Source: Curvularia clavata (taxonomy: Eukaryota). Taken from it: 64,000 nucleotides of DNA. Made by a program: the position numbers and the translations under genes. The stretch covers positions 372,001 through 436,000 of the forward strand of contig CP089281.1 of the NCBI GenBank assembly GCA_023920165.1, in the 5' to 3' direction. Below the pieces are notes generated by a model. The model was not told the DNA's origin and did no database searches. It worked only from the letters and a program-made list of their open reading frames with translations. Shown here piece after piece: positions 26,126 through 61,183 of this stretch (positions within the stretch are counted from its first letter, which is position 1; every line of letters begins with the position of its first letter).

Positions 26126-26953
26126 ATTGGTCTCTAACAACGGTGGAAATGCGGTATCGTTGATAAGCTATTCCTATTAACGTCCCTCTCCGCGTGCCGG
26201 AAAACCCACCGTGCAGGAAAATACGACGGGTAATTCGACTTCAAGCGACCATAGCTCTGCGCATATGTCAAACATCACTAAGATTATGTACGTAAGCCCC
26301 CAGCTAACTTACCACTTTTTTTTCGCCCGTTCCTCGCCCGTGACATCGGCTCGAGAAGGACCCGATTGCCGTTGTCACAGTACCGACCCATACACGATTG
26401 TTTTATTCATGACCTGACCCCTGCAAGTCGCTAATATGAAGTAGGAAACCCCCTTATTATAGGTAAAAATAGATCTGAGTACAAAACCGGAAATCATTTC
26501 TATTCGCGACGGTATAAGTGAAAACGCCAATGTAGTGCTTAAGGAAGCAAGTGTATCCAAGACAGACACCATTGTACAGATGGTTTTGCGATCTAGAGCC
26601 TGTTTGGTTCCTAGTTCCAGTTTTATAAGAACTTTAAAGGTAGTAGATAAAGTAACTTTCTTAACTAACTAGAAATAGATAGCTGAGCATTATGTACTAG
26701 ATATAGAATATCTAGTACATAGTCAAGATATAGATAATAAGTAGATGTAGCAGGTGTTACAGTGTTAGTGTCATAATAGTACAGCACGAGATAGATGGGA
26801 GAGAACTATGCTTCAACAGCCGTGTATTCACGACACGAATCGCTATCGAGCGTCTCTAGCGATTACTAGACTTTAATGACCCTAAAAGAGCCCCAGCTGA
26901 CTAATAGAGCCTGGGCTGGAAAAGTTTGGGCTGGACTGGTCCAAATTGGGCCA

Positions 26954-27224
26954 TGTAACGGCGCGAGCAAGACTAGTCGAATCGGTTCCGGTGGGAAGTG
27001 TCACTCAAATGCATATGGAAGTGCGTGGGACAACAGAAACACCTTGGATTCGGTAGACACTCATAGGCCTGGTACGAAAGGATATCAAAAATCTACCGAA
27101 CATCTATGGAAGGTACCTGGTACTTATACCTGGGTGCGGGTCTTCATCGGGTCTGACCCGGCTCTCAATCGGATCTTGATAAGCTGCCCTGGCTGGGGTA
27201 TGTTTTGGTCTATGCATGGTTACA
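26954..27224 (-). mobile_element. Solo LTR (271 bp) of the gypsy family found downstream, essentially not RIP-mutated
   Basis: TGTAAC...GTTACA ends; GGCCA duplicated at 26949-26953 and 27225-27229; aligns with the LTR at 32667-32937. Confidence 0.95.
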
Positions 27225-32181: not shown

Positions 32182-32666
32182 TCCTGATGTTTCAGCCGTA
32201 GCTCCAAGCAGCTATTTACAGAAGGTGACCGATCACGATAAGACTCTGTAGTGGCTGACGATATCCGCCTACCTTTGCAACTTTTATGTGCCACGCCACC
32301 TTACTACTACTAATGACTATCGAACACGAGGTTTTCAAGTTTGTGATTACTACTAGGAATAACTCTAAATCAATATGAAAGGTTATCTAGCTGTTAACGT
32401 GCCTCACAGGTTCGCGCGCCATGCAGGTTTACAGCCCGCACTAGCTATTATCTTTTCTAGAACATCTCTTTCATCACATGGTCTTTATTCCTGTTGGTAT
32501 TACGTGAGTGAGGTCTAGACATAGCTATCAGTGTATGACATATAAAATGTAAAAGTGCAGTAGACCACGTCTTAGTCTATTCAGAATATAAAAATTTGAA
32601 AATGTAGTAAATTATAAAGACCCGACCCTATAGAGAATTGAATCTATCATCTCTCTAGATTATAAA

Positions 32667-35600
32667 TGTAACGGCGCGAGCAAGACTAGTCGAATCAGTT
32701 CCGGTGGGAAGTGTCACTTAAATGCATATAGAAGTGCATGGGACAGTAGAAACACCTTAGATTTAGTAGATACTCATAGGCCTAGTACAAAAGAATATCA
32801 AAAATCTACTAAATATCTATAGAAGGTATCTAGTACTTATACTTAGGTGCAGGTCTTTATTAGGTCTAACTTAGCTCTTAATTAGATCTTGATAAGCTAC
32901 TCTAGCTAAAGTATGTTTTGGTCTATATATAGTTATATTACCTCCCCTTCTAGTAGATAGCTAGTCCTATAGCTATCTATTCTAGTTATTATTCTTCTTC
33001 TCTACACTATAGGGTCTCTCGTTCCTAATTTTCTCTAGATTTTCCCTATACTGCGCTACTCTAGGTAATAGAATACTCTAGTTTTAGTATAACTTCTATA
33101 GCTGTGTATATCCTTTACTTAAGCCTCTATACCTAAGTCTTAGTAACTATTCTAGTACTCACGTAGCGCTGCTGCCTTGCTGCCTAGCCGCTAGGCCGTT
33201 TATCTTTATCTGCTAGACAGGCCTAGACGCTTCGATTAGAGCTCCAAGTCGCCGGCGATTCGTTTGTAGTTAGGGTCTAACAGCTATTTAGGTTATATAT
33301 ACTAAGACTATTTACTTCTCTAGTGTATATATTAATAATAATATAGTATTGCCGCCAAGTTTTCTCCTCTACGCTTCTTAATTAAAATAAGTTAGTTATA
33401 ATTTAACGCACTCGTTTTCGCTATATCTCTTTATTATCTGCTTAGTGCGCTGCTAGATACGTATCGCTTTATCTATCTGCGAGCTATCTACGCCTTAGCG
33501 CGCTATTAGTTCGATATTGCTTACGCCTATCTATCTAATTTCTCTAAGAAGTGTCTTTATTACATCTAATAGAAAGAGAAATACGATTCTATAAGTTTAC
33601 TTTTCTTTTTCTTTACTATTTGCAGCTTAGCTAATCTAGATAGATTTCTAAGTATATTTTTAAAAAGTTTTATAATTTAATTAATACTATTAAGTTATAT
33701 GCTATTACTTAGTATAGCCCTATAGTTAATACTAATATAGAGGTATTACTTAATTAAATTGCTACTACTGCTTTAGATATCGCCTATAAAGTCTAAGTTA
33801 TTAGATTCTAGAAGAAAAAGCTTTTAGTTAATTAGCTTTTTATCGTTTAGAACTAGATCCTAAGGGATATCTAAGATAGTATTTTAGAGTTAGTTAATAT
33901 AGTTAATAGTATAGAAAGGCGCCTTTTGCGTCTTAAAGCTAGGTCGGCTTAGGGTGGCGTCTAGGTCGGCCCTTAGATTAAGGAGTTAGAGGAATAGTCT
34001 AGTTTATTCTCCTCCTCTAAGGAGGATAAGAGTGCGGTTAGCTAGGAGATAGCTAATACTAAGTAGGAGCGCTCTAATATTAAACTTTAAGTAAGGTAAT
34101 ATTTTAGAGGTTTGTTAGTAGTTATAAAGTTTAGATCTAAATTTTTTTTATTACTAATACCTAATAAAGTTTCTATTTTTTCTTTTTTTTAAATTTTATT
34201 ATTTTGTAGTAAAGTTATATTCTCTACATCTTATTCCTATACTATAATCTACTTGCTAAAGAAATATAGGGGTTCTAGTTTAGTAGAATATTATTTATAG
34301 AAGAGTTTAAGCTTGTGTAGGGCTTCTATAAAGTTTAAGACTAAGTATTAGATAGAATTTAGATTATATCTAACCTACTATACTTAGTATTTTAGATTTA
34401 AGCAGTATAACTTACTTACTAGAATTTCTTCTATCTTCTATTCTTTTACGCTTTAGATAGGAGTTGCTAAAAGTCTTAGAAATTTTTATTTTAGAAGAGA
34501 GTTTTAAAGATTTTTATATAATAGATCTAGGGCGAAGATATTATAGATCTAGAACTTTTTTAGAAGGTCTAAGTAGTATAAATATTCTATTTTCTTAAGT
34601 ACTCTAAAGGGCTTCTCTTATTTAGAGAATAGCTTCCTACTTAGATAGTCTAATATAAGATTCTAGATATTTAGGAAGACTATATCTCTAATATTCTAAT
34701 TAATAGAATAGTAATAGTAGTTAACTATAGTTTATATCCTATTCTAGACTTTCTCTATTTATTCTTTAACCACCTTCTATATATTATATATATAGGTAGC
34801 TATTTCTAATACATCCTTATAGTTAAGTTTGTTAGTAAGAGTAAGAGAGCTAGTAGAATATTTCTAGTCCTAACTCTGCTGGGGTTTAGAACTATATAGA
34901 ATATAGTATAGAGATATACTAATAGAAGAATATAGTAGGGAAATTTAAGTACAATTAATTAAGAGTAGAAGTCTACTCTAGTTATCTTAGTAGTAGAATA
35001 TAAAGAGGCGCAATCTATGATTAATATATTTATTTATAATCTCTATCTAATTATCTATTTTTTTATAGTAGATAGTTAATAGCTTAACCTTAACATCTAG
35101 AATTTAGCAGAATTCCAACTAAAAGCTTAAAATAAACTGTAGTTCTTAGTCAGAGACTATAGTTTTAGGTATATAGCTAAATCAGTATATCTATTAAATA
35201 AATAGATTAGCTATTCCCCTTACATTAATAGTCTTATAGTAGAAGATAGAGATAGTCTACTTAGATAACTAGTTAATCATAACTATAATTATATTATAAC
35301 TAGATTAGTCTTAAGAAAATTTCTTAAAGTTAATATATAGATGCTATATTAGCTAGTTAGAAATTAGTAAAAGATAAATTATCTCTAGAATTTAGATCTA
35401 TCTAGAATAGGCCTTTCTATAGGCTATACAATTCTGCATATATCTTTTATAGATAGATTCTATACCCTTCTAGTAGTATTTCTAGAATAGTAGTTAGTAG
35501 ATCTTCTTCATATTAGAGTGCGCTAAAAATACCTAGTTATATATTTTCTAAATAAGACGAGTTATAAAAGTAGAGATAGAAGGAATATATAGATAGTTAG

Positions 35601-38600
35601 AATAGAGTAGAAGTCTATTTTTAATCTAGTATCTATCTAGAAGGGACTTTCGCCCTACCCTAAATAAGGCTTAGTTCTCTTATAGAATAGACTTAATTAG
35701 TTCTAGTAAATTAAGAGATATTAGCTCTAATATAGGCTTAACTATAAGTAAAAAGAAAGATTCTACTTAAAGTTAGGCTATATAGATCTTAGTAAGTTTA
35801 GAGTTAATTTAGTTATTAAATTAGTATAGTCTTAGAAGGACCCGCGAATAGTTATTAATTTAGGCTATTTTTAAATTTCTTATATTTTACTTCTATTAGG
35901 AGAGGATATTAGTATAAGTATTATTTTTTCTAGAGATATATTAGATATAGAAATTAAAAAATACTAATTCTTCTATCTATTATATCTAGCAGGTATTTAG
36001 AACTTTAGTAGATATAAAGTATTTAAAGGAATAGTGGTCTAAATACATATTGATATAAAAGTGTATTAATAGTAGTTTAGATTGCCACTTACTAAATACT
36101 ATTATAATAGTAAATAGTTCTTTATTATATATTTTCTAATTTAGCTTAGATCTAGATAGGACCTTACTAAAGAATACTATAGATTACTAATTTCTATTTA
36201 GCTATTTTTAGAAAAGAACGTCTACTATAACGCTATTAGATGCGTTAGTCTCTATTTTAGTATTATACTTTAGATGGTAGTAGTATAAGATAGGAATTGC
36301 TAGTAGTATAGATTTTAATCTTTTAAAGATTTAGTTGTACTTTAAATTCTATATAAATAGTTTTAAAAGGCTTTAGAAGATAAGAAAAGATTTTATAATT
36401 TATAAGTATTTAGAAATAAACTATCTATAAAATCTAGTAAACTTTAGAAATAATTTTATACTAGTAATAGTAGTAGGTTAGATCTAATTTTAAAAGGTTT
36501 CTACTTTATTAGAGTCTATCTCTAGATCTTAGTTAGTTAAAATATACTTTAGGTATTTAGTCTAAGTAATATAGAATTTGCTTTTTTTAATGTTAATTTG
36601 GAGACTGGCTTATCTAAGCCTTTCTAAGATCTATTATATGTGGTGGGGGTGGTCTAGTTCTAATTTGGAATAGATTAAAATATTATCTAGATAGACAGTA
36701 TAGAAGCTGTCTAGATAATTAATTAATATATTATTTATATAGCGTTAATATATTATAGGGCTATTATATAATCTAAAAGGTAATACTTTAGACTTATAGA
36801 TTTTATATCTAATGTAGAATATAGTATACTTCTCTAAGTTAGGGTGTATTTAGATCTTATTAAATGCTGTACGTATATTAAGCTTAGTAAAAACTTTTGT
36901 CTTATAGATACAGGCTAGAAGCTTATTAATACGTAGTATTAGATAGATATTTTTTCTAGTAATTATATTAAGTTGGCGGTAATCTATATAGATATAAATA
37001 TCTCTATTTAACTTCTAAATATAACTAGAGAGATAAAGGGGTAGTAGCTTAGATTAATATATCTTTTTCTAAGATTTTCTATTATAAATATCTTAGTAGT
37101 TTTAAGTTTTTTAGTACTCTATTTATATAGAGGACTAAATTAATTTAAAAGAAGTTTAGTTAGTATAATTTTATAATTGTATAGGCGATATTTAGATAGT
37201 AGCTCTATTACTATTTTATTAAAGATATTGTGGTATAAATAGTAAGTAGATAGAAGTTAGTTCTAAATAAGTTTAGTATTTTTAGAATTATTTAGCTTTA
37301 TATACTTTTCTAAAATATAATTAATTTTATAGATACTTATTATAAAGAACTTATTTTTTTTATATTTTATAAAATAATAGAAAGTATTTACTAAAATAAT
37401 AGTAATATAGAGTAAAGATGTTAGTTAGATAGGGTCTAGAGTAGGGTTAGGAATAAATAGTAGTAGATAAATTTTAGGAAGTTTGAGGTATTCTCTAATT
37501 CTTTATATAAAAGCTTTATAAGGATTATTTTATTTATAGTAGTTATTTTTTTCTTATAGTGCGTCTCGTCTCTATATATTCTATTCTATATTAGTATTAA
37601 TAGAAGGTTGTTTTAATTATATAAGAATAGATAGCGCGGGATTATATATTAGAGGGTACTTAGCTGGCTATATAATCTAGTTCTAGCTTATATTAAGCTT
37701 AAGCTAGAAATATCTTAACTATTTAATTCTAATTATATAGTTCTATATCTCTAAATTTATAATTATAAAGAGATAGTTATAAATCTTTGTTTTATTAATT
37801 TAAATATGTAACTAAATATATTTATCTACTCTAATTTAGATTTAGTTCTAAAATCTTTTAACTATAATTTTAAAAAGAAGTTTTTAGATAGAGATCTAAA
37901 GAGAGCTAGAGAAAGTATAAATAATAGTAGAATTTAAGAATAAAAAGCTTTAGACTCTAGTATTAACTAAAGAGTATAAGCTAATACTAAACTCTTTTAA
38001 ATAAAGAATGGTAGATATTAGAAAGTATTTTTCTCTAAATAAGTAGAATAAATTAATTTTAGCTAGATTATACTTATTTATATTTAGAGTAGAGAGTTTT
38101 TTTAGATCTGGTGGTTTTCTATCTAGTCCTTCTCTAATAAGTATTCGTATACTTTTTTGAATTCTTTCTTCTCTATTTTGATTTCTTAAATCTAAGGAAT
38201 GGGGCACTTATTTATATAATATCTAGATTTTCTATAGTTATAGTAATTACTAATAGTTAGTTTACTATCTAGTGTAGAGGTTTTTAAAAGAAATCTGGAA
38301 ATATTAGAATAAGTGCGAGATTAGGTTAGAGTTAGTTTAGATTAGACTCTATAAGTATTTAGGTAGTAGTTTTAGTATTAACTAATATAGGGCTTTATTA
38401 GTAAAGTATAAGAATTATTAGAAGTGGGTTCTAAACTATATCTAAAAGGAGTGTTTTTTCTTTTAGTATCAAAAATAGTAAAGTATTATATTATTTTATT
38501 AAAGGAGTTATTCTACTAGTATTTAAATTTTAAGTTTAGAATATATAAGGTGGAGGTAATTTTTTTCTATAAGTAGAAAAACTACTCTAATTTTAATATA

Positions 38601-39856
38601 GATTTTTTAATAGTAGTACTTATAAATTTTATTTTAAATTTAGTAAAAGTTTCTTTTTTATTTATAAGTAAGTAGTAGAAAATAGTATGGCTTTCTACTT
38701 ACTTATTGCTAAATATAAAATATAATTTTAGAGTAGTTATTATATTTTTAGCGTTTGAGAACTGGTCCTCTACTAAATTAGCTAGATACTATAGTTCTAG
38801 ATATTTTAGCGATATTTATAGTATATCTCTAGACTAGAGTTATATATACGTATTTACTTTAATAATAGTCTATATTAATTATTAAGTAGTCTTCTATTAA
38901 TATTTGCTATTAGCGGAATATAGATTCTATTCTATTACTAAAATTATTAATAAAAAAGATATATTCTATAAGTTTAATATATAGTAGATTTAGAGTTACT
39001 AACTAATATTTTCTAAATTAAGTTATAGTTAGTTTAGCGATAGTTAGTAGTAATTTAGTAGAAAAGAGAAATTAATTTAGGGCTATAGTATTTTAGCGGG
39101 ATAGCTATATAATTTATTTATTTAGTCTATTAATCTCTATTTAAAGGAGGCTAGTCTTATTCTCTTCTAAATTCTCTTTCTCTTTAATAGCTAGTAGTTT
39201 ACTAGGCATCTTCTCTCTTAACTTTAAATTTTAGAAGTATAGTAACTTTCTAGAAAGCTCTTCTAAGCTAGATAGAGTTAAATTAGCTATTAATAGTTAT
39301 TTTTATAGCTAATAGATTTTTAGTAGTTTCTAAGTCTCTATTCTAGTGTAATCTACGCGACTTTTCTAAAGTTAATTTAACTATAATTAGTATAGAAGGT
39401 CTAAATCTAAAAGCTTTAGTTAGTGGGAGATTAAAAGGATTCTATCTATATATAAACATAGAACGTAATAGTATAAAGTATCTAAAGTAGTTTTAGAGAG
39501 ACTTAGACTTAGATATAGTTTTAATAAATAAGCTATAATATTATTTTAAAGACTATTACTAGCTAGAATAAGATTTTTAATATAATATAATAGTATAAGT
39601 AAGACTAGTTAAATTAGTTTTAGTAGAAAGTATTACTTAAATATATATAGAAGTGCGTAGAATAGTAGAAATATTTAAGATTTAGTAGATACTTATAGAT
39701 CTAGTATAAAATGATATTAAAAATCTACTAAATATTTATAGAAGGTATCTGGTACTTATATCTAGGTGCAGGTCTTTATTAGGTCTGACCCGGCTCTCAA
39801 TTGGATCTTGATAAGCTGCCCTGGCTGGGGTATGTTTTGGTCTATGTATGGTTATA
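32667..39856 (-). mobile_element. Full-length Ty3/gypsy chromovirus, copy A (7190 bp), RIP-inactivated
   Basis: LTRs 32667-32937 and 39586-39856; TSD ATAAA on both sides; PPT complement ttacctcccct at 32938; RT YLD(D)IL relic near 36685; chromodomain relic about 34300-34440. Confidence 0.93.
33423..33997 (+). pseudogene. RIP-mutated antisense accessory ORF of the chromovirus (copy A); Cys-rich N-terminus, coiled-coil C-terminus
   Basis: Indel-free frame over two exons (intron 33591-33643); all internal stops are TAA/TAG, reversible to CAA/CAG. Confidence 0.6.
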
Positions 39857-39861
39857 ATAAA

Positions 39862-42011: not shown

Positions 42012-43475
42012 ATAAATATAACCATATATAGACTAAAATTTACCCTAGCTAGAGCAGCTTATTAAAATCTAATAAAGAACCAGATTAGATCTAATAAAGA
42101 CCTATATCTAGATATAAGTACTAGATACTTTTTATAAATGTTTAGTAGATATTTAATATTCTTTTATACTAGATCTATAAATATCTACTAAATTTAAACT
42201 ATTTTTATTATCTTACGTACTTCTATATATATCTAAGTAATACTTTCTACTAAAACTAATTTAACTAGTCGTACTTATACTATTATATTGTATTAAAAAA
42301 TTTATTTTAGCTAGTAATAGTTTTTAAAATGATATTGTAGCTTATTTATCAAGACCATATTTAAGTCTAAGTCTATTTAAAACTACTCTAAATACTTTAT
42401 ACTATTATATTTCAAATTTATATATAAATAGAATTTTTTTAATTTTCTACTAACTAAGATTTTTAGATTTAGATCTTCTATACTAATTATAATTAGATTA
42501 ATTTTAGAAAGGGTATATAGATTACGCTAAAAAAGAGACTTAAAAACTACTAAAAATTCATTAGCTAGAAAGATAACTATTAATAGCTAACCAAACTCTA
42601 TCTAGCTTAAACAAGACTTCTAGAAAATTATTATGCTTTCAAAATTTAAAGTTAAGAAGGAAAATATCTAGTAAACTACTAGCTATTAAAGAAAAAGAAA
42701 ATATAAAAGAGAATAAGACTAGTATTTTTTAAGTAGAATTTAATAAACTAAATATATAAATTATATAGCTATTCTACTAAAATACTATAGCTTTAAATTA
42801 ATCTCTTTTTTCTACCAAATTACTACTAACTATTACTAAACTAAGTAAAACTAAATTTAAAAGATACTAGTTAGTAATTCTAAATCTGCTATATATTTAG
42901 TCTATAGAATATATCTCTTCTATTAATAACTTTAGTAATAGAATAGAATTAATATTCTATTAATAGTAAATATCAATAGAAAACTACTTAATAATTAATA
43001 TAAACTATTATCAGAATAAAAATATATATATAGATTTAGTCTAGATATATACTATAGATATTACTCAAGAATATCTAAAACTATAGTATCTAGCTAATTT
43101 AGTAGAGAACTAGTTCTAAAATACTAAAAATATAATAGCTACTTAAAAATTATACTTTATATCTAGTAATAAGTAAGTTAAAAGCTTTACTACTTTTTAC
43201 TATCTATTTATAAGTAAAAAAGAAACTTTTATTAAATTCAAAAAAAAAATATATAAGTACTACTATTAAAAAATCTATGTCAAAGTTAGAGTAGTTTTTG
43301 TATTTATGAGAAAAGAATTATCTTTATTTTATATATTCTAAATTTAGAATTAAAATATTAGTAGAATAATTCCGTTGATAAAGTAATATAATATCTTACT
43401 ATCTTTAATATCAAATAAAGAAATACTTTTTTTAGATATAATTTATAATCTACTTTTAATAATTCTTATACTCTA

Positions 43476-45584
43476 CAGTGGGGTGACACGAAAAAAGATC
43501 ACAAGGAAAAATAGCATTTTTCACTAGGCTATATCTTAGCTAATAAAATAGCTAAAAATATAACAGCTTAAGATTTGTATAGAGAATTACCAGCTCTTCT
43601 AGTCTATAATCTAAAAAAAAGTTTAGTAAGTAAATAGCTCTTATAAAACAAAGCTAAACTAGTGAGAAAAAAAATCGTCAACTTTACACGTATTTTTCGC
43701 GCTGAGATCTTGCAATTTATATAGCTATCTATATATAGATATATACTATTAGTATATATATATAATATATATTTTTTATAGCTATAGTTATTTATCTAAA
43801 TTAGAAGATATATATATAACTTATATTTTAGTAAATATATAAGATAATAATAGTAAATTACTATCTAATATTTTGTATACCAGCCCTTAGCTTCCACTAC
43901 TCTATTATAGCGTTTGGGCATAGATAAAATACAGCTATCTATGTCTTTTTGTGGTATTTTATGCCACTCTTGGTGAATAGCTGTAAAAAACGTATTTATA
44001 CTAGTCTCACTAGCGCCAGTGCCAAGACTAGAGCTTGGCAGCTTAGTAAGCCGATTTTTAAGTAAGCTCCATACGTTTTCTGTTGGATTTAGATCTGGGC
44101 TATACGCTGGATGGTCGAAAAGTGTAATCTTATCGCGCTTAAACCAGTCTAAAACGTTTCTAGCTTTGTGGATTGTTGCGTTATCTTGTTGGAATTTCCA
44201 GCCTAAATAGATATGGATTAGCTAACTATAACTGTATAGTTAGACTTATATATATATATTTATATATTTAGATATATATATATATATAAGTAAAAATATA
44301 TAGCAGAACTTACCGCGTTTTATATTCGGTTTTATATATGGTATTAGACATTTTCTAATATAGTGGTGATTTCGATGTTTTACTACGCTATTTGGCGTTT
44401 TAATAACCACTAGATCGGATCTGCCACCTATCCAAATAGCTCCCCAAACTTGGATAGTTATATCATGGGCTAAAAATTGGCTTAGTCAGCTAGATATATA
44501 AATTATAATATATATATATAGTTATAAATATATATAACTATATTTTGGCTTATTAGAAATATTTTTAAACGTACTTGTATTTTTAGTAGAGTATATTTTT
44601 GGATTTTGGTGGTATTTTGGCCTATTTCGAGAAAATTCGGCTCGAGAGCCATATCCACGCTGGATTCCAGACTCGTCAGAAAATATAATCTTGTTAAAGT
44701 TAATATTACTAAACTTTTTAAGCGTAGTTTAAGCGTACAATAGCCGTTTTTTAGCTTTTTTAGCGTTTAAAATTAGCTTTTTTTAACTAGTTGTTATAGT
44801 CCAACCCTCAGCTTTTAAAACTCTTTGAAGAGTTCTATTAGATATTTCTAGATTATTTTCGTTTAATAATCTATTTTTTTGCTTTTTTAGACTTCGCGTT
44901 ATATCTCTATTTAACGCTCTTATAGCTCTAGTAGTTGTCTTTGGTATTCTGCCTAAACTAGCTCTTTTTGGCTCACTAATAGTCTTATATTTTCGTTTTA
45001 TTCGAGCTATAGCGTTATATATAGACCGTGGATTTTTTTGAAAGTAATTAATTATATTTTTTATAGGTGTATTAGCGTCTAAAAACGCTTTGATTTGGCG
45101 TTCGAAATTCGACAGTTGTGGCTCCATTGTGTGGGGAATACAGTTTTAAGTTGCTAGAAATGAAAAGCTATAGTTATATACTAGTTGATTACTAATGGCT
45201 GACTAAGCTAGTGCTTATGTAAGCTAGTGCCAAAATTTCAAATCTCATATAGCTATTTAACTAGATAGACAACTATAGCTTAAAGCTATATATATTATAT
45301 ATAAATACTAATAGTATATATCTATATATAGATAGCTATATAAAATAACAAATATCAGCGCGAAAAATACGTGCAAAGTTGACGTTTTTTTTTCTCTCTA
45401 GTTCAGCATTTCTTTCTAAGAGCTATATACTTACTAAGCTTCTTTTTAGATTATAGACTGGAAGAGCTGGTAATTCTCTATACAAATCTTAAGCTTTTAT
45501 GTTTTTAGCTATTTTATTAGCTAAGATATAGCCTAGTGAAAAATGCTATTTTTCCTTGTGATCTTTTTTCGTGTCACCCCACTG
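43476..45584 (-). mobile_element. Tc1-like DD34E DNA transposon, copy 1 (2109 bp), long TIRs
   Basis: CAGTGGGGTGAC...GTCACCCCACTG ends; imperfect TIR about 325 bp; CTCTA on both flanks. Confidence 0.93.
43865..45127 (-). pseudogene. Tc1 transposase, 3 exons, 348 aa when spliced, with premature TAA stops
   Basis: FSDES, VWGAIW, FQQDNA-34aa-SPDLNPTENVW, GWYTKY*; introns 44574-44470 and 44313-44203. Confidence 0.88.
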
Positions 45585-48500
45585 CTCTATTAATAAATCT
45601 TTAAATTAGTTAATATTAAAACTACTATCTAAATACTTGTAGAGTCTAATTTAAACTAGTTTTAATCTAACTTTATATTTATTTTAATATTTCTAGATTT
45701 TTTTTAAAGATCTCTATACTAGATAGTAAATAGACTACTAGTGGTCACTATAACTATAGAAAATTTGAATATTATATACATAAGTACTCTATTCTTGAAA
45801 TTTAAAACATTAAAGTAGAAAAAGAAGAATTTAAAAAAGTATATAAATACTGATTAACAAAAGACTCAATAGAAAATTATTAAATTTAAGAAAACTTTCT
45901 ATTTTAGAAATAAATAAGTATAATTTAGCTAAAATTAATTACTAGTATTTATTTAAAGAATAATACTTTCCCGTCTCTAGTATTCTTTATTTAAATAGAT
46001 CCAATATTAGCTTTTACTTTTTAGTTAATACTAGAGTTTAAGATTTTCAATTTTTAAATTCTATTATTACTTATACTTTTTCTAGCTTTCTTTAGATTTC
46101 TATCTAAAGATTTTTCTTTAAAATTATAGTTAAAAGATTTTAAAACTAAGTTGAAATCAGAGTAGATAAATATATATAGTTATATATTTAAATTAATAGA
46201 AGAAGGATTTATAACTGTTTTTTTATGATTATAAGTCTAAAATGTAAAACTTTATAATTAGAATTGAATAGCTAAAATATTTCTAATTTGAACTTAATAT
46301 AAGCTAGAACTAAATCATATAGCTAGCTAAGTATTTTTTAATATATAATTTTACGCCTTCTATTCTTATATAGTTAAAATAATCTTTTATTAATACTAGT
46401 ATATAATAAAATATATAGAGATAAGATATGCTATAGGGAAAAAATAACTACTAGAAATAATTTATCCTTATAAAGCTCTTAAATAAGAATTTAGAGAATA
46501 CTTTCAACTTTCTAAAGCTTATCTACTACTATCTATTTCTAACTCTACTCTAGACTCTATTTGATTAATAATTCTACTCTACATTACTATTATCTTTGTA
46601 AAAACTTTCTATTATTCTTTAAAATAGAAAAAACATAAGTCTTTTATAATAAATATTTATAAAACTAACAATATTCTAGAAGAGTGTATATAGTTAGATA
46701 ATTTTCAAAATACTAAACTTATTTAGAACTAACTTCTATCTACTTACTATTTATACTATAATATTTTTAGTAAAATAGTAGTAAAGCTACTACTCAAATA
46801 TTACCTCGATAATTATAAAATTATACTAATTAAATTTTATCTAAATCAATTTAACCTTCTATATAAGTAGAGTACTAAAAAACTCAAAGTTACTAAAATA
46901 TTTATAATAAAAAACTTTAGAAAAGAATATATTGATTTGAGTAACTATTTCTTTGCTTTACAATTTTTTTATATTTAGAAACTAAATAGAAATATTTATA
47001 TTTATATAGATTATCGCTAACTTAATATAATTACTAGAAAGATTGCGTATCTAATACTATGTATTAATAATCTTTTAGTCTATACTTATAAAATAAAAAT
47101 CTATACTAAACTTAATATATGTATAGTATTTAATAGAATCTAAATATATTTATATTTAGAGAAGTATACTACGTTTTATACTGGATATAGAATCCATAAG
47201 TTTAAAAAATCTTCTTTCAAATTATATAATAGTTTTATAATATATTAATGCTATATAAATAATATATTAATTAATTATCTGGATAGCTTTTCTATAGTTT
47301 ATTGAGATGATATTTTAATCTATTTTAAATTAAAACAAGACTATCTCTACTATATATAATAGATTCTAGAGAGGCTTATATGAATAGATTTTTAAATTAA
47401 TATTAAGAAGAGCGCATTCTATATTATTTAGACTAAATATCTAAAGTATATTTTAATTAACTAAAATCTAGAAATAGACTCTAATAAAGTAGAAGCTCTT
47501 TAAAATTAGATCTGATGTACTACTATTACTAATATAAAGTTATTTCAGAATTTTTTTAATTTTATAAATAGTTTATTTCTAAATACTTATAAATTATAAA
47601 ATTTCTTTTTACTTTTTAAAGTCTTTTAAAATTATTTATATAGAATTCAGAATACAACTAAGCTTTTAAAAAACTAAAATCTATACTACTAGTAATTTCT
47701 ATTTTATACTACTACTATCTAGAGTATAATACTAAATTAAGATTAATATATCTATTAGTATTATAGTAGATATTTTTTATTAAAGTAGCTAGATAGAACT
47801 TAGTATTTTATAGTATTCTTTAGTAAGATTCTATTTGAATTAGAGCTAAACTAGAAAATATATGATAAAGAACTATTTATCATTATAATAGTATTTAGTA
47901 AATAGTAATCTAAACTACTATTAGTACGTTTTTATATTAATATATACTTAGACTACGGTTTTTGAAATATTTTATAATTACTAAAATTTTAAATATCTAT
48001 TAGATATAATAGATGGAAAATAAGTATTTTTTAATTTCTATATCTAATATGTTTATAGAAAAAATAATATTTATACTGATATTTTTTTCTAATAGAAGTA
48101 AGATATAGGAAATCGAGGGATAGTCAAAATTGATAATTATTTATTAGTCTATCTAGAACTATGATAACTTAATAACTAGATTACTTTTAAATTTACTAAG
48201 ATCTATATAGTCTTACTCTAAATGACATTTTTTTTATCTATATTTAAGTCTATATTAAAACTAATTTTTTTTAATTTATTAGAGCTAATTAAGTCTATTG
48301 TATAAATGAACTAAACTTTATTTAAAGTAGAGTGAAGACTCTTTTTAGATAGATACTAGAATAAAAATTAATTTCTACTCTATCCTAAGTATCTATATAT
48401 TTTTTCTATCTTTATTTTTATATATTGTTTTATTTAGAAAGTATATAACTAAGTTTTTTTAGTATACTTTGGTATAAAGAAGACCTACTAGCTACTATTC

Positions 48501-48933
48501 TAGAAGTACTACTAGAAGAATATAGAATCTATCTATAATAGGTATATATAGAATTATATTATCTATAAAAAGATATATCTTAAATGGATTCAAACTTTAA
48601 AAATAAAATATTTTCTACTAATTTCCTACTAGCTAATATAGTATATATATATTTAGTTTAAGAGTTTTTTCTAAAACTAATTTAGTTATAATATAATTAT
48701 AGTAATAATTAACTAGTTATCTAAGTAGACTATTTCTATTCTCTACTATAAAACTATTAATATAAGAGAAATAGCTAACCTATTTATTTGATATATATAC
48801 TAATTTAGCTATATACTTAAAATTATAGTCTCTAACTAAGAATTATAGTTTATTTTAAGCTTTTAGTTAGAATTCTATCAAATCTTAAATGTTAAAGTTA
48901 AGCTATTAACTATTTACTATAAAAAAATAAATA

Positions 48934-51042
48934 CAGAGGGGTGACAAAAAGAAAGACCAATCAAAAAGGTAGCAGTTTTAGAACGAGTATAACTCGGCCG
49001 ATAGGATAGCTAAAAATATAGAATATACTGTTTTATGTAGGGATTATTCAGCAGTTTAAGTCTAGGATTTTAAATATAGCTTAGTCAGCATAGAAGAAAT
49101 ATAGTAAACTTTTAAAATAGAGTAAAGAAAAAACGCAAAATAAAAGCTACTTTCTCGCGCTTAAATATTTGAGTATTCATTGTTTTTAGTAAATATATAT
49201 AATATAACCATATATATATATAATATATATTTTTTACACCAATAGCTATCTATCTAAATTGTTAGATATATATATAAGTTATATTTTAGTATTTATATTA
49301 GATAATAACTATAAAGTACTATCTAATATTTAGTATACCAGCCCTGAGCTTCGACTACCCTATTATAGCGTCTTGGCATAGATAAAATACAGTTATCTAT
49401 ATCTTTTTGTAGTATTTTATACCACTCTTGGTAAATAGCTGTAATAACCGTATTTATACTAGTCTCACTAGCGCCAGTGCCAAGACTAGAGCTTGGCAGC
49501 TTAGTAAGCCGATTTTTAAGTAAGCTCCATACGTTTTCTGTTGGATTTAGATCTGGGCTATACGCTGGATGGTCGAAAAGTGTAATCTTATCGCGCTTAA
49601 ACCAGTCTAAAACGTTTCTAGCTTTGTGGATTGTTGCGTTATCTTGTTGGAATTTCCAGCCTAAATAGATATGGATTAGCTAACTATAACTGTATAGTTA
49701 GACTTATATATATATATTTATATATTTAGATATATATATATATATAAGTAAAAATATATAGCAGAACTTACCGCGTTTTATATTCGGTTTTATATATGGT
49801 ATTAGACATTTTCTAATATAGTGGTGATTTCGATGTTTTACTACGCTATTTGGCGTTTTAATAACCACTAGATCGGATCTGCCACCTATCCAAATAGCTC
49901 CCCAAACTTGGATAGTTATATCATGGGCTAAAAATTGGCTTAGTCAGCTAGATATATTAAATACAAAATATATATATAGTTATATATATATATAACTATA
50001 ATTTGGCTTATTAGAAATATTTTTAAACGTACTTGTATTCTTTGTAGAGTATATTTTTGGATTTTGGTGATACTTTGGCCTATTTCGAGAAAATTCGGCT
50101 CGAGATCCATATCCACGCTGGATTCCAGACTCGTCTGAAAATATAATCTTTTTAAAATCTATATTAGTAAGCTTTTTAAGCTTATCTTTTGCGTAAAGTA
50201 GCCATTTTTTAGCTTTTTTCTCGTTTAAAATCGGCTTTTTTTGACTTGTTGTTATAGTCTAGCCTTCTGCTTTTAAAACTCTTTGAAGAGTTCTACTAGA
50301 TATTTCTAGATTATTTTCGTTTAATAATCTATTTTTTAGCTTTTTTGGACTTCGTGTTATATCTCTATTTAGAGCTCTTATAGCTCTAGAAGATGTCTTT
50401 GGAATTCTGCCTAGACTAGCTCTTTTTTGCTTACTAATATTAGATTTTTTCTTTTTAATCCGTTTAATAGCGTTATGTATTGACTGTGGCGGTTTTTAAA
50501 AATAGTTAATGATATTTTTTATAGAAGTATTTGCGTCTAGAAATGCGTTAACTTGACGTTCAAAATCTGAATATTTGGGCTCCATAATGTGGGAAATACA
50601 GTTTTAAGTTGCTAGAAATGGAAAGCTCTAGATATATACTAGTTGATTACTAATAGCTGACTAAGCGGCTGCTTATATAAGCTAGTGCTAAAATCTTAAA
50701 TTTTATATCGCTGTTTTATTAGATAGACAACTATAGCTATATAAGATATATATAAAATATATAGATGGATAGTCTCTATCCATGTATAGATAATCATAAA
50801 AACTACAAAACCTAAGCGCGAAAAATACGTGTAAAGTTGACGTTTTTTTTTCTCTCTACTTTAGTCTTTTTTTACGAAGACTTGATGCTGACTAAGCCAG
50901 ATTTTAAATCCTAGTCTCAAACTACTAACTAATCTCTATACAATATACTAGCTACTTAACTTTTAGCTATTTTATTAGCTGAGTTATATAAGTTTCAAAA
51001 TTGCTACTTTTTTGATTGGTCTTTCTTTTTGTCACCCCACTG
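48934..51042 (-). mobile_element. Tc1-like DD34E transposon, copy 2 (2109 bp), divergent TIRs
   Basis: CAGAGGGGTGAC...GTCACCCCACTG ends; same layout as copy 1 at offset +5458. Confidence 0.92.
49323..50585 (-). pseudogene. Tc1 transposase copy 2, 3 exons, with RIP-type stops
   Basis: Same motifs; introns 50032-49928 and 49771-49661; CAA>TAA and TGG>TAG stops at different sites from copy 1. Confidence 0.87.
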
Positions 51043-52900
51043 CAATATCGTTAACATAAGCAATAGAGTTAATAATACTCTGATCTAGTTTGATAAAGCT
51101 AGATATACTATAATTAACAGTTTAAATATCGAAATATAATATATAAAATATATTATAAAATATTCTATGAGAGGCTCAAGCAGATTATTTATTTATAGTT
51201 CTAGATATTAAAGAGTTCTTTTGAATAATATTTTAGCTTAGTTCCTAGTCTAGCTTATATAGAAGGCGTACTCTATTATTTATTTTGATTATATATAATA
51301 TTCTTAATGTTTTTCAAATTTTAATATAATAATTAGCGTATAGTTATAGATTTGGAAGTATTAAAGACTAGTTATACTATTCATAGTAGTTCTATTTAGT
51401 TATCTTATAGCTTAGTTATATACATCTATAGATATTATCTTAAAGTTCAATTTATTCTTTATATTTAGCTGTCTGTTTTTAAATAGCAGCTACTTAAAAG
51501 TTTTTACTAAATACTTAATTTTACTAAAAATATAGTTTAGTATAGAATTATAAATAATTTATCTTTATCTTTACTAGATTTTTTATACTCTATTTTTGGC
51601 TAAAAGTACTTTAGTAACTTTACATACATATTTTTTTACAGTAATAATTTTTTCTATATATATATATTTTATAATGTTAATCAATTAATTAATAATTACT
51701 AGTATACTATTATAAGAACGTATAGATCTAGGTTTTAATAACTTCAGAAGTTTTATTATAAAATCTATTATTATACTACTCTATAGTCTAGTAAGTAGTA
51801 TTAGAAATTATAATAAACTATAGAGTTTGTATCTCTTAGACTTATTCTAGTAATATACTTGATAGTTATTTAGAATATTTTATATCTATACTTTGAAGTA
51901 TAGTATCATAAAAGTTTTAGCTAGTTGTCTAACTATTCTTTTAGTTTCTCTATATCTATATTCAGAAGACTTATATAGTTCTTAAATAAGATTTTTTTAA
52001 TACTTAGTAATATACACATTTATTTATTCTATATTATATTTTGATATTTCTACTTATTATCTAGTAGATTATAAAAGTTATCTTTATTAGAGTTAAACTA
52101 CTAGTTTAGTACTCTCTTTTATTATCATTACTGTAGTATTAAGACTCAATAGACAACTATCTGAATTTTTATCAAATTAGATTAGATATATCTTAGACCT
52201 TTATTAGCGATATAGTTGAAAATTATATTATATTGTTTCTTATATTCTTCTATCTTTAGACAAGAGTATTAGCTTAGATTATTAGCTACTCTATTCAATG
52301 ATTTTATATAATATATTATTTTAAAATTAAACTTAATAACTATTTATTTTGCTAAATTTATTATTAGTAAAGTTTTTTATTTATCATAAAGCTTATTAGA
52401 TTCTAGTAATTGACAAAGATTTTATTTATATCTAGAAGTTCTAATAAGTAGATTTTATATTATCTAAAAGTATCAACTATTCTAAATAGCTTTTTATTCA
52501 AAATATTTTATTTGAGTTCTATTCTAAAGAAATTTATTAAATAGTAGAATATTAGTCTCTATTTCTTTTTTAGATACTACTATAAAAACCTAATTTTTGA
52601 TATACAGTTAAATATATTAATTTTAACTTAAGTTTTTTATTTCAAATCATACATTTTAAATATAGATACTTTAAAGAATATCTACTTTAGTTTTTTTAAA
52701 GCTTTTTAGTAATCTTTAGTCTAGTAAAATGTTATTTCTTTCTTAGTGATTTTAGTAAGTAGTACTATAATTTAGAAAAAGTTTTTTAATGAATTTTTAG
52801 TAGAAACATATAAACTCTAGAAAAACCATGTATCTTTAATTAATTTAGAGATTAACTATTTCTATATAGTTTAGACTTTTGTTAGATTTATTGTAATACT
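51043..52900. mobile_element. Unclassified RIP-mutated sequence; continues at 61944 after removing copy C
   Basis: RIP composition; split by the copy C insertion (TSD ATACT). Confidence 0.5.
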
Positions 52901-58100: not shown

Positions 58101-60609
58101 GATAAAATAGAAGCTTTTTAAGACTAGATCTAATCTACTATTATGACTAGTATAAAATTATTTCTAAGGTTTACTAGATTCTATAGATAGTTTGTTTCTA
58201 AATACTTGCGAATTGTAAAATCTCTTCTTATCTTCTAGAGTCTTTTAAAACTATTTATATAGAATTTAGAGTATAACTAAATCTTTAAAAGATTAAAATC
58301 TCTACTATTAGTAATTTTTATTTTATACTACTACTATCTAGAGTATAATACTAAGATAGAGACTAATATGTCTAATGGCGTTATAGTAGGCGTTCTTTCT
58401 TAAAAGTAGCTAAATAGAAATTAGTATTCTATAATATTCTTTAGTAAGGTTCTATCTAGGTCTAAGCTAAACTAGAAAATATATAATAAGAAACTATTTA
58501 CTATTATTATAGCGTTTAGTAAATAGTGACTAGAGCTACTATTAATACGCTCTTATATTAATATATACTTAGACTACTATTTTTTTAAATATTTTATAAC
58601 TACTAAAGTTCTAAATATCTACTAAGTATGATAAGTAGAAGAATTAGTATTTTTTAATTTTTATATCTAATATATCTCTAGAAAGAATAATACTTATACT
58701 AATATTCTCTTCTAATAAGAGTAAGATATAGAGAATCTAAAAATAGTCTAAATTAATAACTATTCGCGGGTTTTTTTAGGACTATACTAACTTAATAACT
58801 AAATTAACTCTAAACTTACTAAGATCTATATAGTCTAACTCTAAGTAGAATCTTTCTTTTTACTTATAGTTAAGTCTATATTAGAGCTAATATCTTTTAA
58901 TTTGCTGGAGCTAATTAAGTCTATTCTATAAAAGAACTAAGTCTTATTTAGGGTAGAGTATAAGTCTTTTCTAGATAGATACTGGATTAAAAATAGATTT
59001 CTACTCTATTCTAACTATCTATATATTTCTTCTATTTCTATTTTTATAACTCGCTTTATTTAGGAAGTATATAATTAGATATTTTTAGTGTACTTTAGTA
59101 TAAAGAAGATCTACTAACTACTATTCTAGAGGTACTACTAGAAGGGTATAGAATCTATCTATAAAAGGTATATATAGAATTATATAGCCTATAGGAAGAT
59201 CTATTCTAAATAGATCTAAATTCTAGAGATAATTTATCTTTTACTAATTTCTAACTAGCTAATATAGTATTTATATATTAACTTTAAAGAATTTCTCTAA
59301 GACTAATCTAGTTATAACATAATTATAGTTGTGATTGACTAGTTATCTAAATAGACTATCTCTATCCCCTACTATAAGACTATCAATATAAAAGAAATAG
59401 CTAATCTATTTATATAATAGATATACTCATTTAGCTATATATCTAAAACTATAGTTTTTAACTAAAAACTATAGTTTATTTTAAGCTTCTAGTTAGAATT
59501 CTGCTAAATTCTAGACGTTAAGGTTAAGCTATTGATTGCCTACTATAAAGAAATAGATAGTTAGATAGAGATTATAAATAAGTATATTGATTAGAGATTA
59601 TATCAATTTATATTCTACTACTAAAATAACTAGAGTAGATTTCTATCTTTAATTAATTATACTTAAATTTTTTTACTATATTCTTCTATTAGTATATCTC
59701 TATACTACGTCCTATATAGTTCCAAACTCTAGTAAAGTTAGAACTAGAAATATTCTACTAGTCTTTCTATCTCTACTAATAAACTTAACTATAAGAATAT
59801 ATTAGAAATAGCTATCTATATACATAATATATAGAAAATAGCTAAAACTAAATAGAAAAAGTCTAGAATAGGATATAAACTATAGTTAACCACTATTATT
59901 ATTCTATTAACTAGAATATAGAAGATAAAGTCTTTCTAAGTATCTAAAATCTTATATTAGACTATCTAAATAGAAAGCTATCTTCTAAATAGAAAGGACC
60001 CTTTAAAATACTTAAGAAAATAGAATATTTATACTATTTAAACCTTCTAAAAAGATTTTAGATCTATAATATCTTTACTCTAGATTTATTATATAAAGAT
60101 TTTTAAAACCCCTTTCTAAAATAAGAATCTCTAAAGTCTCTAGCTACTTCTATCTAAGATATAGAAAAATAGAAAGTAGAAGAAATTCTAGTAAGTAAGT
60201 TATACTACTCAAACCTAAAATACTAAGTATAGTAGATTAGATATAATCTAGATTCTATTTAGTATTTAGTCTTAAACTTTATAAAAACTCTATATAAGCT
60301 TAAGCTCTTCTATAAATAATATTCTACTAAACTAGAATTTCTATATTCTATTAGTAAGTAGATTATAATATAAAAATAAAATATAGAGAATATAATTTTA
60401 CTATAAAATAATAAAATTTAAAAAAAAAAAATAGAAACTTTATTGAATATTAGTAATAAAGAAAATTTAGACCTAAACCCTATAACTACTAGTAAATCTC
60501 CTAAATATTATCTTACTTAAAGCTCAATATTAGAGCGCTCTAGCTTAGTATTAGCCATCTTCTAGTCAACTACACTCTTATCCTCCTCTAAAAAGGAGGA
60601 TAAACTAGA

Positions 60610-61183
60610 CTATTCCTTTAACTTCTTAACCTAAGGACTAACCTAGATACTACTCTAAACTAATCTTACCTTAAAATATAAAAGACGCCTTACTATATAT
60701 TAACTATATTAACTAAATCTAGGATACTATTTTAAATATCTCTTAAGACCTAGTTCTAGATAATAAGAAACTAATTAACTAAAAGCTTTTTCTTCTAAGA
60801 CTTAACAACTTAGACTTTATAGATAATATCTAAAGCAGTAATAGTAATTTAATTAAGTAATATCTCTATATTAGTATTAGTCTTAAAGCTATACTAAGCA
60901 ATAGTATATAGCTTAATAGTATTAACTAAATTATAAAACTCTTTCAAAATATACTTAAAAATCTATCTAGATTAGCCAAGCTATAAATAGTAAAAAAAAA
61001 GAAAAGCGAACTTATAGAATTATACTTCTTTTTCTGATAGATATAATAAAGATACTTCTTAAAGAAATTAGATAGATAAACGTAAGCAATATTAAACTAA
61101 TAGCGTACTAAAGTATAGATAGCTTATAGATAGATAAAGCGATATATATCTAGTAGCGCACTAGATAGATAATAAAGAGATAT
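60610..61183 (-). pseudogene. Antisense accessory ORF relic in chromovirus copy C
   Basis: Homologous to 33423-33997 with complementary RIP changes. Confidence 0.55.

What the first reader, a model, noticed from the sequence alone, without database searches (positions are those of the whole stretch)
33423..33997. Hidden antisense, intron-containing accessory gene in the chromovirus 3' region
Seen: about 1.3 kb lies between the chromodomain and PPT in copies A and C. On the strand opposite gag-pol there is an indel-free frame with a 53-nt intron-like segment (ataagt..gctaat..atag) whose stops are all TAA/TAG. Inference: reversing RIP gives ~173 aa, roughly MSL..VCLRA.HALAR..FDIAC.....SKKCLYC..QKEKCD./I....EEF..L...QIAAAALDIA...QNQILRDIQD.ILELV..V..VERRLLRL.ARS..QIEELEE*, i.e. 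a putative zinc-binding Cys cluster plus coiled coil. The ATG, GT donor and most Cys codons are reconstructed. An antisense intron survives retrotransposition because it is not spliced from genomic RNA. A regulatory or anti-silencing role is speculation.
Basis: inference. Interest (0 to 1): 0.78.

Follow-up and report, generated by a model that had tools for sequence, protein, structure and literature searches.

The report
Dead antisense gene inside fungal retrotransposon
A mutation-riddled fungal jumping gene carries, on the strand opposite its own genes, the wreck of a real intron-containing extra gene; intact copies in the same species encode a small cysteine-rich helical protein of unknown role.

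Summary
Copy A (32667-39856, 271-bp LTRs, 5-bp target duplication ATAAA) is a RIP-degraded Ty3/gypsy element with pol on the minus strand. On the plus strand, between the 3' LTR and the pol end, lie exon 1 (33423-33590), a 53-nt intron (33591-33643) and exon 2 (33644-34090).

Spliced this way, the frame aligns without gaps to a 204-aa annotated "uncharacterized protein" of Curvularia clavata. Of 204 codons, 112 are identical, 91 are explained by reversing C>T/G>A, and 1 is neither (shuffled control 36 +/- 5).

The window's Pescadillo protein is 100% identical to that of C. clavata, which has at least 7 annotated near-identical copies. Bipolaris species hold 47-50% identical, multi-copy relatives. 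A 43% identical relative sits among ordinary genes in a metagenome fungus, with a 51-nt intron at the same codon boundary.

Corrections:
- "All stops TAA/TAG" and the intron motif are not discriminating on their own.
- The cysteine pattern is CX2CX6C plus two upstream Cys, not a full Zn2Cys6 signature.

Function is unknown, and no RNA evidence was obtained. The layout has a published precedent (brtn of Boty elements), so this is a new member of a known kind.

The parts
32662..32666 (.). Target-site duplication ATAAA (left)
   Evidence: Read directly; the same 5 bases lie at 39857-39861.
32667..32937 (-). 3' LTR of copy A in element orientation (271 bp, TGTAAC...GTTATA)
   Evidence: Self-BLAST; ends read.
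32941..32951 (-). Polypurine tract (AGAAGGGGAGG on the minus strand)
   Evidence: Read directly.
32952..33422 (+). Spacer upstream of the antisense gene, presumed to hold its promoter and 5' UTR. The last 78 nt match the N-terminal extension of gene model P0133.
   Evidence: 26 of 27 upstream codons are identical or RIP-reversible to P0133 residues 1-27; an un-mutated version of 33274-33303 is present in X1 contigs. The promoter role is inferred.
33423..33590 (+). Exon 1 of the antisense accessory gene, 56 codons. Start codon ATA (from ATG), 3 RIP stops. Holds conserved Cys5, Cys18 and CX2CX6C (44-54).
33591..33643 (+). 53-nt spliceosomal intron, phase 0. Donor ATAAGT (from GTAAGT), branch GCTAAT (CTAAC in an un-mutated X1 contig), acceptor ATAG.
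   Evidence: loose end behind 33634; gene models; same-position 51-nt intron in L002.
33644..34090 (+). Exon 2, 148 codons plus stop TAA at 34088-34090, with 14 RIP stops.
34280..34440 (-). Chromodomain-like motif at the C-terminus of pol (by eye only)
   Evidence: translation. Pfam found no family in 34204-34479, so this is not confirmed.
34513..36987 (-). pol domains in one frame: RVT_1 (36550-36987), RT_RNaseH_2 (36055-36330), Integrase_H2C2 (35413-35565), SH3_Tf2-1 (34513-34686)
   Evidence: stops read as X; coordinates converted from residue numbers.
39586..39856 (-). 5' LTR of copy A (271 bp)
39857..39861 (.). Target-site duplication ATAAA (right)
60517..61183 (-). The same dead gene in copy C: exon 1 61183-61016, intron 61015-60963, exon 2 60962-60517. 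It has 15 stops and one 1-nt deletion.
   Evidence: Against P0003: 89 identical, 105 RIP-reversible, 9 other of 203 scored codons.

Best explanation
**What it is (about 0.9).** 33423-34090 (+) is a RIP-inactivated copy of a genuine two-exon gene that belongs to this Ty3/gypsy element family. The gene sits between the pol end and the 3' LTR and is read antisense to gag-pol. It encodes a 204-aa protein with three parts:
- a basic N-terminal module (pI 9.2) with five conserved cysteines;
- about 100 residues of long helices;
- an acidic, Ser-rich tail.

The window's species has several intact, annotated copies.

**Why the intron persists (logic from how retrotransposition works).** The element's genomic RNA carries the intron as its reverse complement, so it cannot be spliced out. 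The intron is therefore copied at every retrotransposition.

**Origin (inferred, about 0.5).** The gene was captured from a host gene of the kind seen as a stand-alone gene in locus L002.

**How it works (inferred, about 0.35).** A separate antisense mRNA starts in the 470-nt spacer or the 3' LTR, is spliced and is translated. The product is a small, possibly metal-binding helical factor that acts in trans on the element's own expression, replication or silencing.

In this window the gene does nothing: 17 stops in copy A, 15 in copy C, and both start codon and donor destroyed.
For: **Shown**
- Position and orientation inside a complete element with a target-site duplication.
- Both window copies that include this region carry it.
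- 203 of 204 codons are identical or RIP-reversible to P0003, against 36 +/- 5 for shuffles.
- phmmer with the raw X-masked exon 2 found exactly one protein among 1.84 billion representatives, at E=2e-24.
- Table 3 lists RIP-reversing letters from other genomic copies at 14 codons. Ten give the P0003 residue, four stay compatible, none conflicts.
- 124 contig pieces of run X1 at 80% or more likeness lie on 33300-34150, with up to 21 distinct contigs at one position.
- C. clavata has P0132 (4 accessions on 3 contigs), P0003, P0133 and P0002.
- P0133's upstream extension matches the element's spacer at 26 of 27 codons.
- The window's Pescadillo is 100% identical to that of C. clavata.
- Bipolaris maydis, victoriae and sorokiniana have 47-50% identical relatives. 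They are multi-copy in B. sorokiniana, and one copy shows RIP-like changes (P0138).
- The intron lies at the same codon boundary in Curvularia models, in Bipolaris (spliced versus unspliced calls) and in L002.
- Five Cys and the VQVxRSQEKE motif are conserved in all intact full-length members.

**Precedent for the layout**
- brtn of Boty, and plant antisense aORFs (passages of PMC7264820 and PMC8365987).
Against: - The DNA around the intact C. clavata and Bipolaris genes could not be fetched. That they lie inside elements is inferred from copy number, shared upstream flank and RIP-like variants.
- Splicing rests on gene models and conserved splice signals, not on RNA reads.
- No family, fold or solved relative tells what the protein does.
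- The Zn2Cys6 signature is incomplete.
- The L002 relative shows the protein can exist as an ordinary host gene, so carriage by the element could be incidental.
- The chromodomain of the carrier is not confirmed.
Confidence: 0.85

Rival explanations
1. Passenger. The element picked up a host gene, which survived in antisense because its intron and signals are not processed on the genomic RNA. The gene is simply carried along and has no role in the element's life cycle.
For: - A 43%-identical stand-alone relative lies among Xrn1, DUF2293 and amidase genes, with no LTR-like repeats nearby.
- The review PMC7264820 (passages) notes that gene transduction by retroelements occurs.
Against: - PMC7264820 says transduced genes are usually found in one or a few copies. 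Here both window copies, many X1 contigs and at least 7 annotated genes carry it.
- Relatives in Bipolaris are also multi-copy, yet keep the Cys pattern, the motif, the intron and the length at only 47-50% identity. That suggests long retention under constraint.
Confidence: 0.2
2. The working product is the antisense RNA, not the protein. Transcription through the 3' region gives dsRNA with the genomic RNA and tunes silencing, and the ORF is secondary.
For: PMC7264820 (passages) raises this possibility for antisense aORFs in general.
Against: The protein sequence, the reading frame, a frame-breaking intron and five Cys are conserved between genera and in a non-element locus. An RNA-only role does not explain this.
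Confidence: 0.1
3. The direction is reversed. The gene arose in the element, and the stand-alone L002/P0008-type genes are domesticated copies.
For: Only two stand-alone-type sequences are known here: the L001-L004 locus and P0008. They lack the acidic tail.
Against: - An intron-bearing gene with canonical host signals is more simply explained as host-born.
- No element remains are seen near L002.
- No rooted tree was possible with so few sequences.
Confidence: 0.15
4. Chance. Heavy RIP lets almost any frame be 'repaired' into an ORF, and the intron motif is common in AT-rich DNA.
For: - All six frames lack TGA.
- 44 intron-like matches occur in 31.3 kb.
- The two-copy consensus stays closed.
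Against: - 203 of 204 codons fit P0003, against a maximum of 50 in 1000 shuffles and 23-41 in the other frames.
- The single phmmer hit has E=2e-24.
Confidence: 0.01

Closest known systems
brtn, the additional antisense gene of Boty-like (BcGypsy1) Ty3/gypsy elements of Botrytis cinerea and Sclerotinia (Zhao et al. 2011, Virology 417:248). The paper is not held and is known here only through citing passages in PMC8365987, PMC7264820, PMC4227169 and PMC5987419.
   Same: A fungal Ty3/gypsy element with a chromodomain-type pol, and an extra gene between pol and the 3' LTR on the opposite strand. The encoded protein has no known family.
   Different: - Different fungal class: Leotiomycetes versus Pleosporales.
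- None of the searches with this family returned a Botrytis or Sclerotinia protein. The BRTN sequence itself was not compared.
- Whether brtn has an intron or a stand-alone host relative I could not read.
[quoted passage not shown]
   Same: - Same place and orientation, present in most copies of a family, and no clear database similarity.
- gene23 is transcribed from its own promoter and its product is nuclear.
   Different: These are plant elements. The passages read mention no intron in these genes, and there is no sequence relation.
HBZ of HTLV-1, an antisense, spliced gene of a retrovirus. The gene is recalled from general knowledge; the antisense promoter in the HTLV 3' LTR is mentioned in PMC7264820.
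   Same: Antisense to gag-pol, at the 3' end of the provirus, spliced, and encoding a small helical regulator.
   Different: HBZ is a bZIP protein of a human retrovirus. No bZIP or other family was detected here.
Gal4-type Zn2Cys6 binuclear cluster
   Same: CX2CX6C with K-x-K-C-[DSE]-P, as in the first half of the cluster, followed by long helices.
   Different: The second CX2CX6-8C half is absent in 8 of 8 members checked. Pfam gave no Zn_clus match at E up to 10. Two further conserved Cys lie upstream instead.
Uncharacterized or hypothetical proteins of Curvularia clavata (USP77989.1, USP72776.1 and others) and Bipolaris (KAH7554699.1, XP_014550003.1, EMD58056.1)
   Same: The same protein family. 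The C. clavata entries are the intact form of the very gene that is wrecked in the window.
   Different: The source names seen here say only 'hypothetical' or 'uncharacterized'. They carry no link to a retrotransposon.

Membership tests
Antisense additional ORF of LTR retrotransposons (aORF-3R: brtn, gene23 and others) | Lies between the end of pol and the 3' LTR | tested here: met
   Gene at 33423-34090, 3' LTR at 32667-32937, last pol domain at 34513-34686.
Antisense additional ORF of LTR retrotransposons (aORF-3R: brtn, gene23 and others) | Read on the strand opposite gag-pol | tested here: met
   pol domains are on the minus strand. The gene frame on the plus strand matches P0003.
Antisense additional ORF of LTR retrotransposons (aORF-3R: brtn, gene23 and others) | Present in all or most copies of the element family | tested here: met
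   2 of 2 window copies that include this region (copy B lacks the region). 124 contig pieces of run X1 lie on it. At least 7 annotated genes in the species. Whether every genomic copy is inside an element was not seen.
Antisense additional ORF of LTR retrotransposons (aORF-3R: brtn, gene23 and others) | Own antisense transcript | not testable with these tools
   No RNA reads were obtained. Needs stranded RNA-seq or RACE.
brtn protein family | Sequence similarity to BRTN | not tested
Searches listed no Botrytis or Sclerotinia protein, which is inconclusive.
Zn2Cys6 (Gal4-type) zinc cluster, Pfam PF00172 | Signature CX2CX6CX5-12CX2CX6-8C | tested here: not met
   0 of 8 members match. All 8 have only CX2CX6C.
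Zn2Cys6 (Gal4-type) zinc cluster, Pfam PF00172 | Match to the Pfam profile | tested here: not met
   No Zn_clus row for P0003, P0004 or P0005 at E up to 10. HMMER filters drop most weak matches, so a very distant relation is not excluded.
Ty3/gypsy chromovirus (the carrier element) | pol order RT - RNase H - integrase, LTRs, PPT, target-site duplication | tested here: met
Ty3/gypsy chromovirus (the carrier element) | Chromodomain at the C-terminus of integrase | tested here: inconclusive
   Pfam found nothing in the RIP-mutated segment 34204-34479. A chromodomain-like motif is seen by eye in copies A and C.

The most novel reading that the evidence does not exclude
A lineage of Ty3/gypsy elements in Pleosporaceae (Curvularia, Bipolaris) captured a host gene for a small cysteine-rich helical factor in antisense orientation. 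The retained spliceosomal intron is the signature of that orientation. The elements have kept the gene under selection as their own trans-acting regulator, for example of element transcription or of host silencing. Together with similar antisense Cys-rich genes noted in other fungal elements in this scan (unchecked AI notes), this would mean that element-encoded regulators are a general and overlooked feature of fungal chromoviruses.
Probability: 0.2. Interest if true: 0.72.

Novelty: new member of a known kind. Interest (0 to 1): 0.55.

Why it matters
- **Method.** A gene can be read out of RIP-wrecked DNA correctly, and the reading can be checked with a simple codon-by-codon RIP-reversal test.
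- **Annotation.** It links a set of 'hypothetical proteins' of Curvularia and Bipolaris to a retrotransposon, which their database names do not say.
- **Biology.** It gives a second, unrelated example beside brtn of a fungal Ty3/gypsy element with an antisense accessory gene. This one has a conserved intron and a stand-alone relative, so both the origin (capture versus domestication) and the role of such genes become testable in a culturable fungus that still has intact copies.

Tried and rejected
- **Whole genome:** none is held for this window.
- **Two-copy RIP-reversal consensus of A and C:** too few copies. 13 of 14 internal stops, the ATA start and the ATAAGT donor remain, so it cannot decide either way.
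- **Stop-codon type and intron motif as evidence:** not discriminating.
- **RNA evidence:** no RNA holder listed. The one presumed RNA run laid (X6, contigs) put nothing on the stretch. This is no evidence on expression.
- **Read-laying output:** only 40 of 378 differing places were shown, so the start codon, the donor and most stops could not be read from other copies.
- **Pfam on P0003, P0004, P0005:** only sub-threshold helical noise.
- **PDB by sequence:** only helical or designed proteins; the best hit, E=0.00026, is to a streptococcal haem receptor over a helical stretch.
- **AlphaFold2 model:** pLDDT 71.6.
- **Fold searches:** Foldseek against PDB gave no match at E<=0.001. VIA-align wide gave a best Z of 7.9 with generic helical hairpins, within the tool's stated noise for helical models. 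No fold assignment was made.
- **Homodimer test:** no verdict (score 0.03, mark 0.32).
- **ESM Atlas:** only unnamed Ascomycota clusters, top score 0.90.
- **Viral-contig scan:** none.
- **tblastx of the element against the metagenome loci:** gave no output, and I do not know whether the program ran, so it is not counted.
- **Literature:**
  - Searches turned up no paper describing this gene or an antisense gene in Curvularia or Bipolaris elements.
  - Passages of PMC4112212 (TE survey of Cochliobolus heterostrophus) and PMC3248453 mention none. Their supplements were not read.
  - PMC11963269 and PMC5408684 contain no 'intron'.
  - Zhao et al. 2011 is not held.
Full report
**Setting**

The window has a GC-normal gene-rich half (1-32000, GC 0.40-0.58) and an AT-rich half (GC 0.18-0.37). 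The gene-rich half encodes ordinary eukaryotic proteins: Pescadillo, a P-type ATPase, a ZIP transporter and a kinase. The Pescadillo ORF is 100% identical over 97% of its length to the Curvularia clavata protein. The next best match, at 93%, is Bipolaris sorokiniana. The window is therefore from C. clavata or something indistinguishable from it.

**The carrier element**

Self-BLAST shows three copies of one LTR element.
- Copy A runs from 32667 to 39856.
- Copy C runs from 61938 to 52903 in reverse. It is 86% identical to A and is interrupted by 53311-55157.
- Copy B (42015-51043) is broken and lacks the 3' part.
- A solo LTR lies at 26953-27222.

Copy A has 271-bp LTRs, ends TGTAAC..GTTATA, a polypurine tract next to the LTR at 32937, and a 5-bp duplication ATAAA on both sides.

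With stops read as X, one minus-strand frame gives RVT_1 (E=5e-19), RT_RNaseH_2, Integrase_H2C2 and the Tf2-type SH3 domain. It is a Ty3/gypsy element with gag-pol on the minus strand.

A chromodomain-like motif at about 34280-34440 is visible by eye, but Pfam does not find it in the mutated sequence. About 1.3 kb lies between it and the polypurine tract.

**The observation**

- a frame from 33423;
- the segment ATAAGT..GCTAAT..ATAG at 33591-33643 (53 nt);
- a second frame from 33644;
- only TAA and TAG stops.

A and C differ at 266 aligned places in 32936-34500, and 244 of these are transitions, as expected of RIP.

These features alone prove nothing.
- All six frames of the spacer have 0 or 1 TGA.
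- The frame's stop density (0.073) is only slightly below the others (0.089-0.147).
- A mutation-tolerant intron pattern occurs 44 times in the 31.3 kb of AT-rich DNA.
- A consensus that reverses C>T and G>A using A and C alone still has 13 of 14 internal stops, ATA for the start and ATAAGT for the donor.

**The decisive result**

The raw translation of exon 2 with X at stops (P0001, 117 aa) was scored by phmmer against 1.84 billion representative proteins. It hit exactly one, P0002, at E=2.2e-24.

P0002 and its relatives are 'uncharacterized' or 'hypothetical' proteins of C. clavata:
- P0132: 204 aa, four accessions on three contigs.
- P0003: 204 aa, one residue different from P0132.
- P0133: the same protein with a 27-aa upstream extension.
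- P0002: 178 aa, with a longer intron in the gene model.

Of 204 codons, 112 encode the same residue, 91 can be turned into a codon for the P0003 residue by T>C and A>G changes only, and 1 cannot. The stop falls at the same place (TAA at 34088-34090).

Controls:

| Comparison | Compatible codons |
|---|---|
| Spliced frame, copy A | 203 of 204 |
| 1000 shuffles of P0003 | 35.9 +/- 5.1 (max 50) |
| The other five frames | 23-41 |
| Exon 2 with the intron left in | 20 of 148 |
| Copy C | 194 of 203 (one 1-nt deletion) |

Run X1, whose contigs carry the same species label as the best holder, gives independent support. Table 3 lists letters that reverse RIP at 14 codons of the gene. Ten of them give the P0003 residue, four stay compatible and none conflicts.

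**The intron**

- One X1 contig continues behind 33634 with un-mutated sequence. It turns GCTAAT into the branch consensus CTAAC, keeps ATAG, and then reads codons for VPEYVFE.
- ORF calls on unspliced DNA of relatives (P0006, P0009, P0134) read V-S after ..C[DS]P and then run out of frame. A GTAAGT donor and an intron length not divisible by three would give this.
- A metagenome fungus was sampled four times at 99.8-99.9% identity (L001-L004). It has a 43%-identical 159-aa relative with a 51-nt intron, GTCAGT..CTGAC..TAG, at the same codon boundary.

**Is the gene part of the element?**

- In the window it lies inside the LTRs and target duplication of copy A, and at the same place in copy C.
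- 124 contig pieces of X1 at 80% or more likeness lie on 33300-34150, with up to 21 different contigs at one position.
- Un-mutated versions extend into the spacer upstream of the gene (33274-33303).
- P0133's extra 27 residues fit the spacer just upstream of the start at 26 of 27 codons.
- Bipolaris relatives are multi-copy, and one (P0138) carries RIP-like substitutions.

I could not fetch the DNA around the intact genes. Their place inside intact elements is therefore inferred, not seen.

In L002 the relative lies among Xrn1, DUF2293 and amidase genes, with no long pol ORF and no direct repeats of 40 nt or more within 13 kb. This points to capture of a host gene by the element, or less likely the reverse.

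**The protein**

- Residues 1-56 are basic (pI 9.2). They hold Cys5, Cys18 and CX2CX6C (44-54), conserved in all intact full-length members.
- The motif VQVxRSQEKE is nearly invariant.
- AlphaFold2 with 9 sequences (pLDDT 71.6) predicts helices at 59-80, 88-113 and 118-159, and a disordered acidic tail.
- The full Zn2Cys6 signature is absent in 8 of 8 members.
- Neither the family scans nor the fold searches gave an assignment (see Tried and rejected).

Function is therefore open. My best guess, at about 0.35, is a small trans-acting factor for the element's own expression or silencing. It rests on analogy with nuclear gene23 of maize Grande (PMC7264820, passages) and on retention across genera.

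**Comparison with what is known**

Antisense extra genes between pol and the 3' LTR are described for plant elements and for Boty of Botrytis and Sclerotinia (brtn). See the passages of PMC7264820, PMC8365987, PMC4227169 and PMC5987419. The original paper is not held.

My four literature searches and the passages read in the Cochliobolus TE survey show no description of this gene or of such a gene in Curvularia or Bipolaris elements.

Earlier notes of this scan report similar antisense, intron-bearing Cys-rich genes in other fungal elements. They are unchecked AI notes. I used them only as a lead to test the Zn2Cys6 signature, which this family does not meet.

**Verdict**

- In this window the gene is a fossil.
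- Its interest lies in the intact copies elsewhere in the same genome.
- It is a new member of a known kind.

Noticed in passing
window 43474-45585 and 48932-51043: A 2.1-kb sequence is present twice (84.7% identical). It has about 323-bp inverted ends (43476-43798 versus 45584-45262, 91%). One copy interrupts chromovirus copy B at the equivalent of A-position ~38403, and the other abuts its truncation at A-position 35052. It looks like a TIR-bearing, probably non-autonomous DNA transposon.
   Followed up: no
window 53311-55157: A 1.85-kb insertion splits copy C between its internal part and the 408 bp that end in its 5' LTR. It is somewhat less AT-rich (GC 0.32-0.35) than its surroundings.
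   Followed up: no
window 26953-27222: A solo LTR of the same element family (84.8% to the LTR at 32666-32935) lies inside the GC-normal, gene-bearing part of the window.
   Followed up: no
L002 10001-10531 (metagenome contig): A stand-alone 159-aa relative of the accessory protein lies in an ordinary gene neighbourhood (Xrn1, DUF2293, amidase). It has a 51-nt intron at the same codon boundary and lacks the acidic tail.
   Followed up: partly
protein P0138 (Bipolaris sorokiniana, 104 aa) versus P0137: P0138 differs from P0137 mainly by P>L, R>C, C>Y and R>W changes, the pattern C>T/G>A mutation gives. This suggests the Bipolaris copies are also repeated DNA exposed to RIP.
   Followed up: no
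window 33489-33490, 33504-33505, 33532-33533: At three places the window has TA where most other genomic copies have CG. Both strands of a CpG were mutated there, so RIP in this genome is not confined to CpA.
   Followed up: no
protein P0002 (C. clavata, 178 aa): This gene model skips 26 residues that P0003 and P0132 keep (a longer intron). It also has Cys18>Tyr and a few other changes, mostly of the G>A type. It is probably a lightly mutated copy with a forced gene model.
   Followed up: partly
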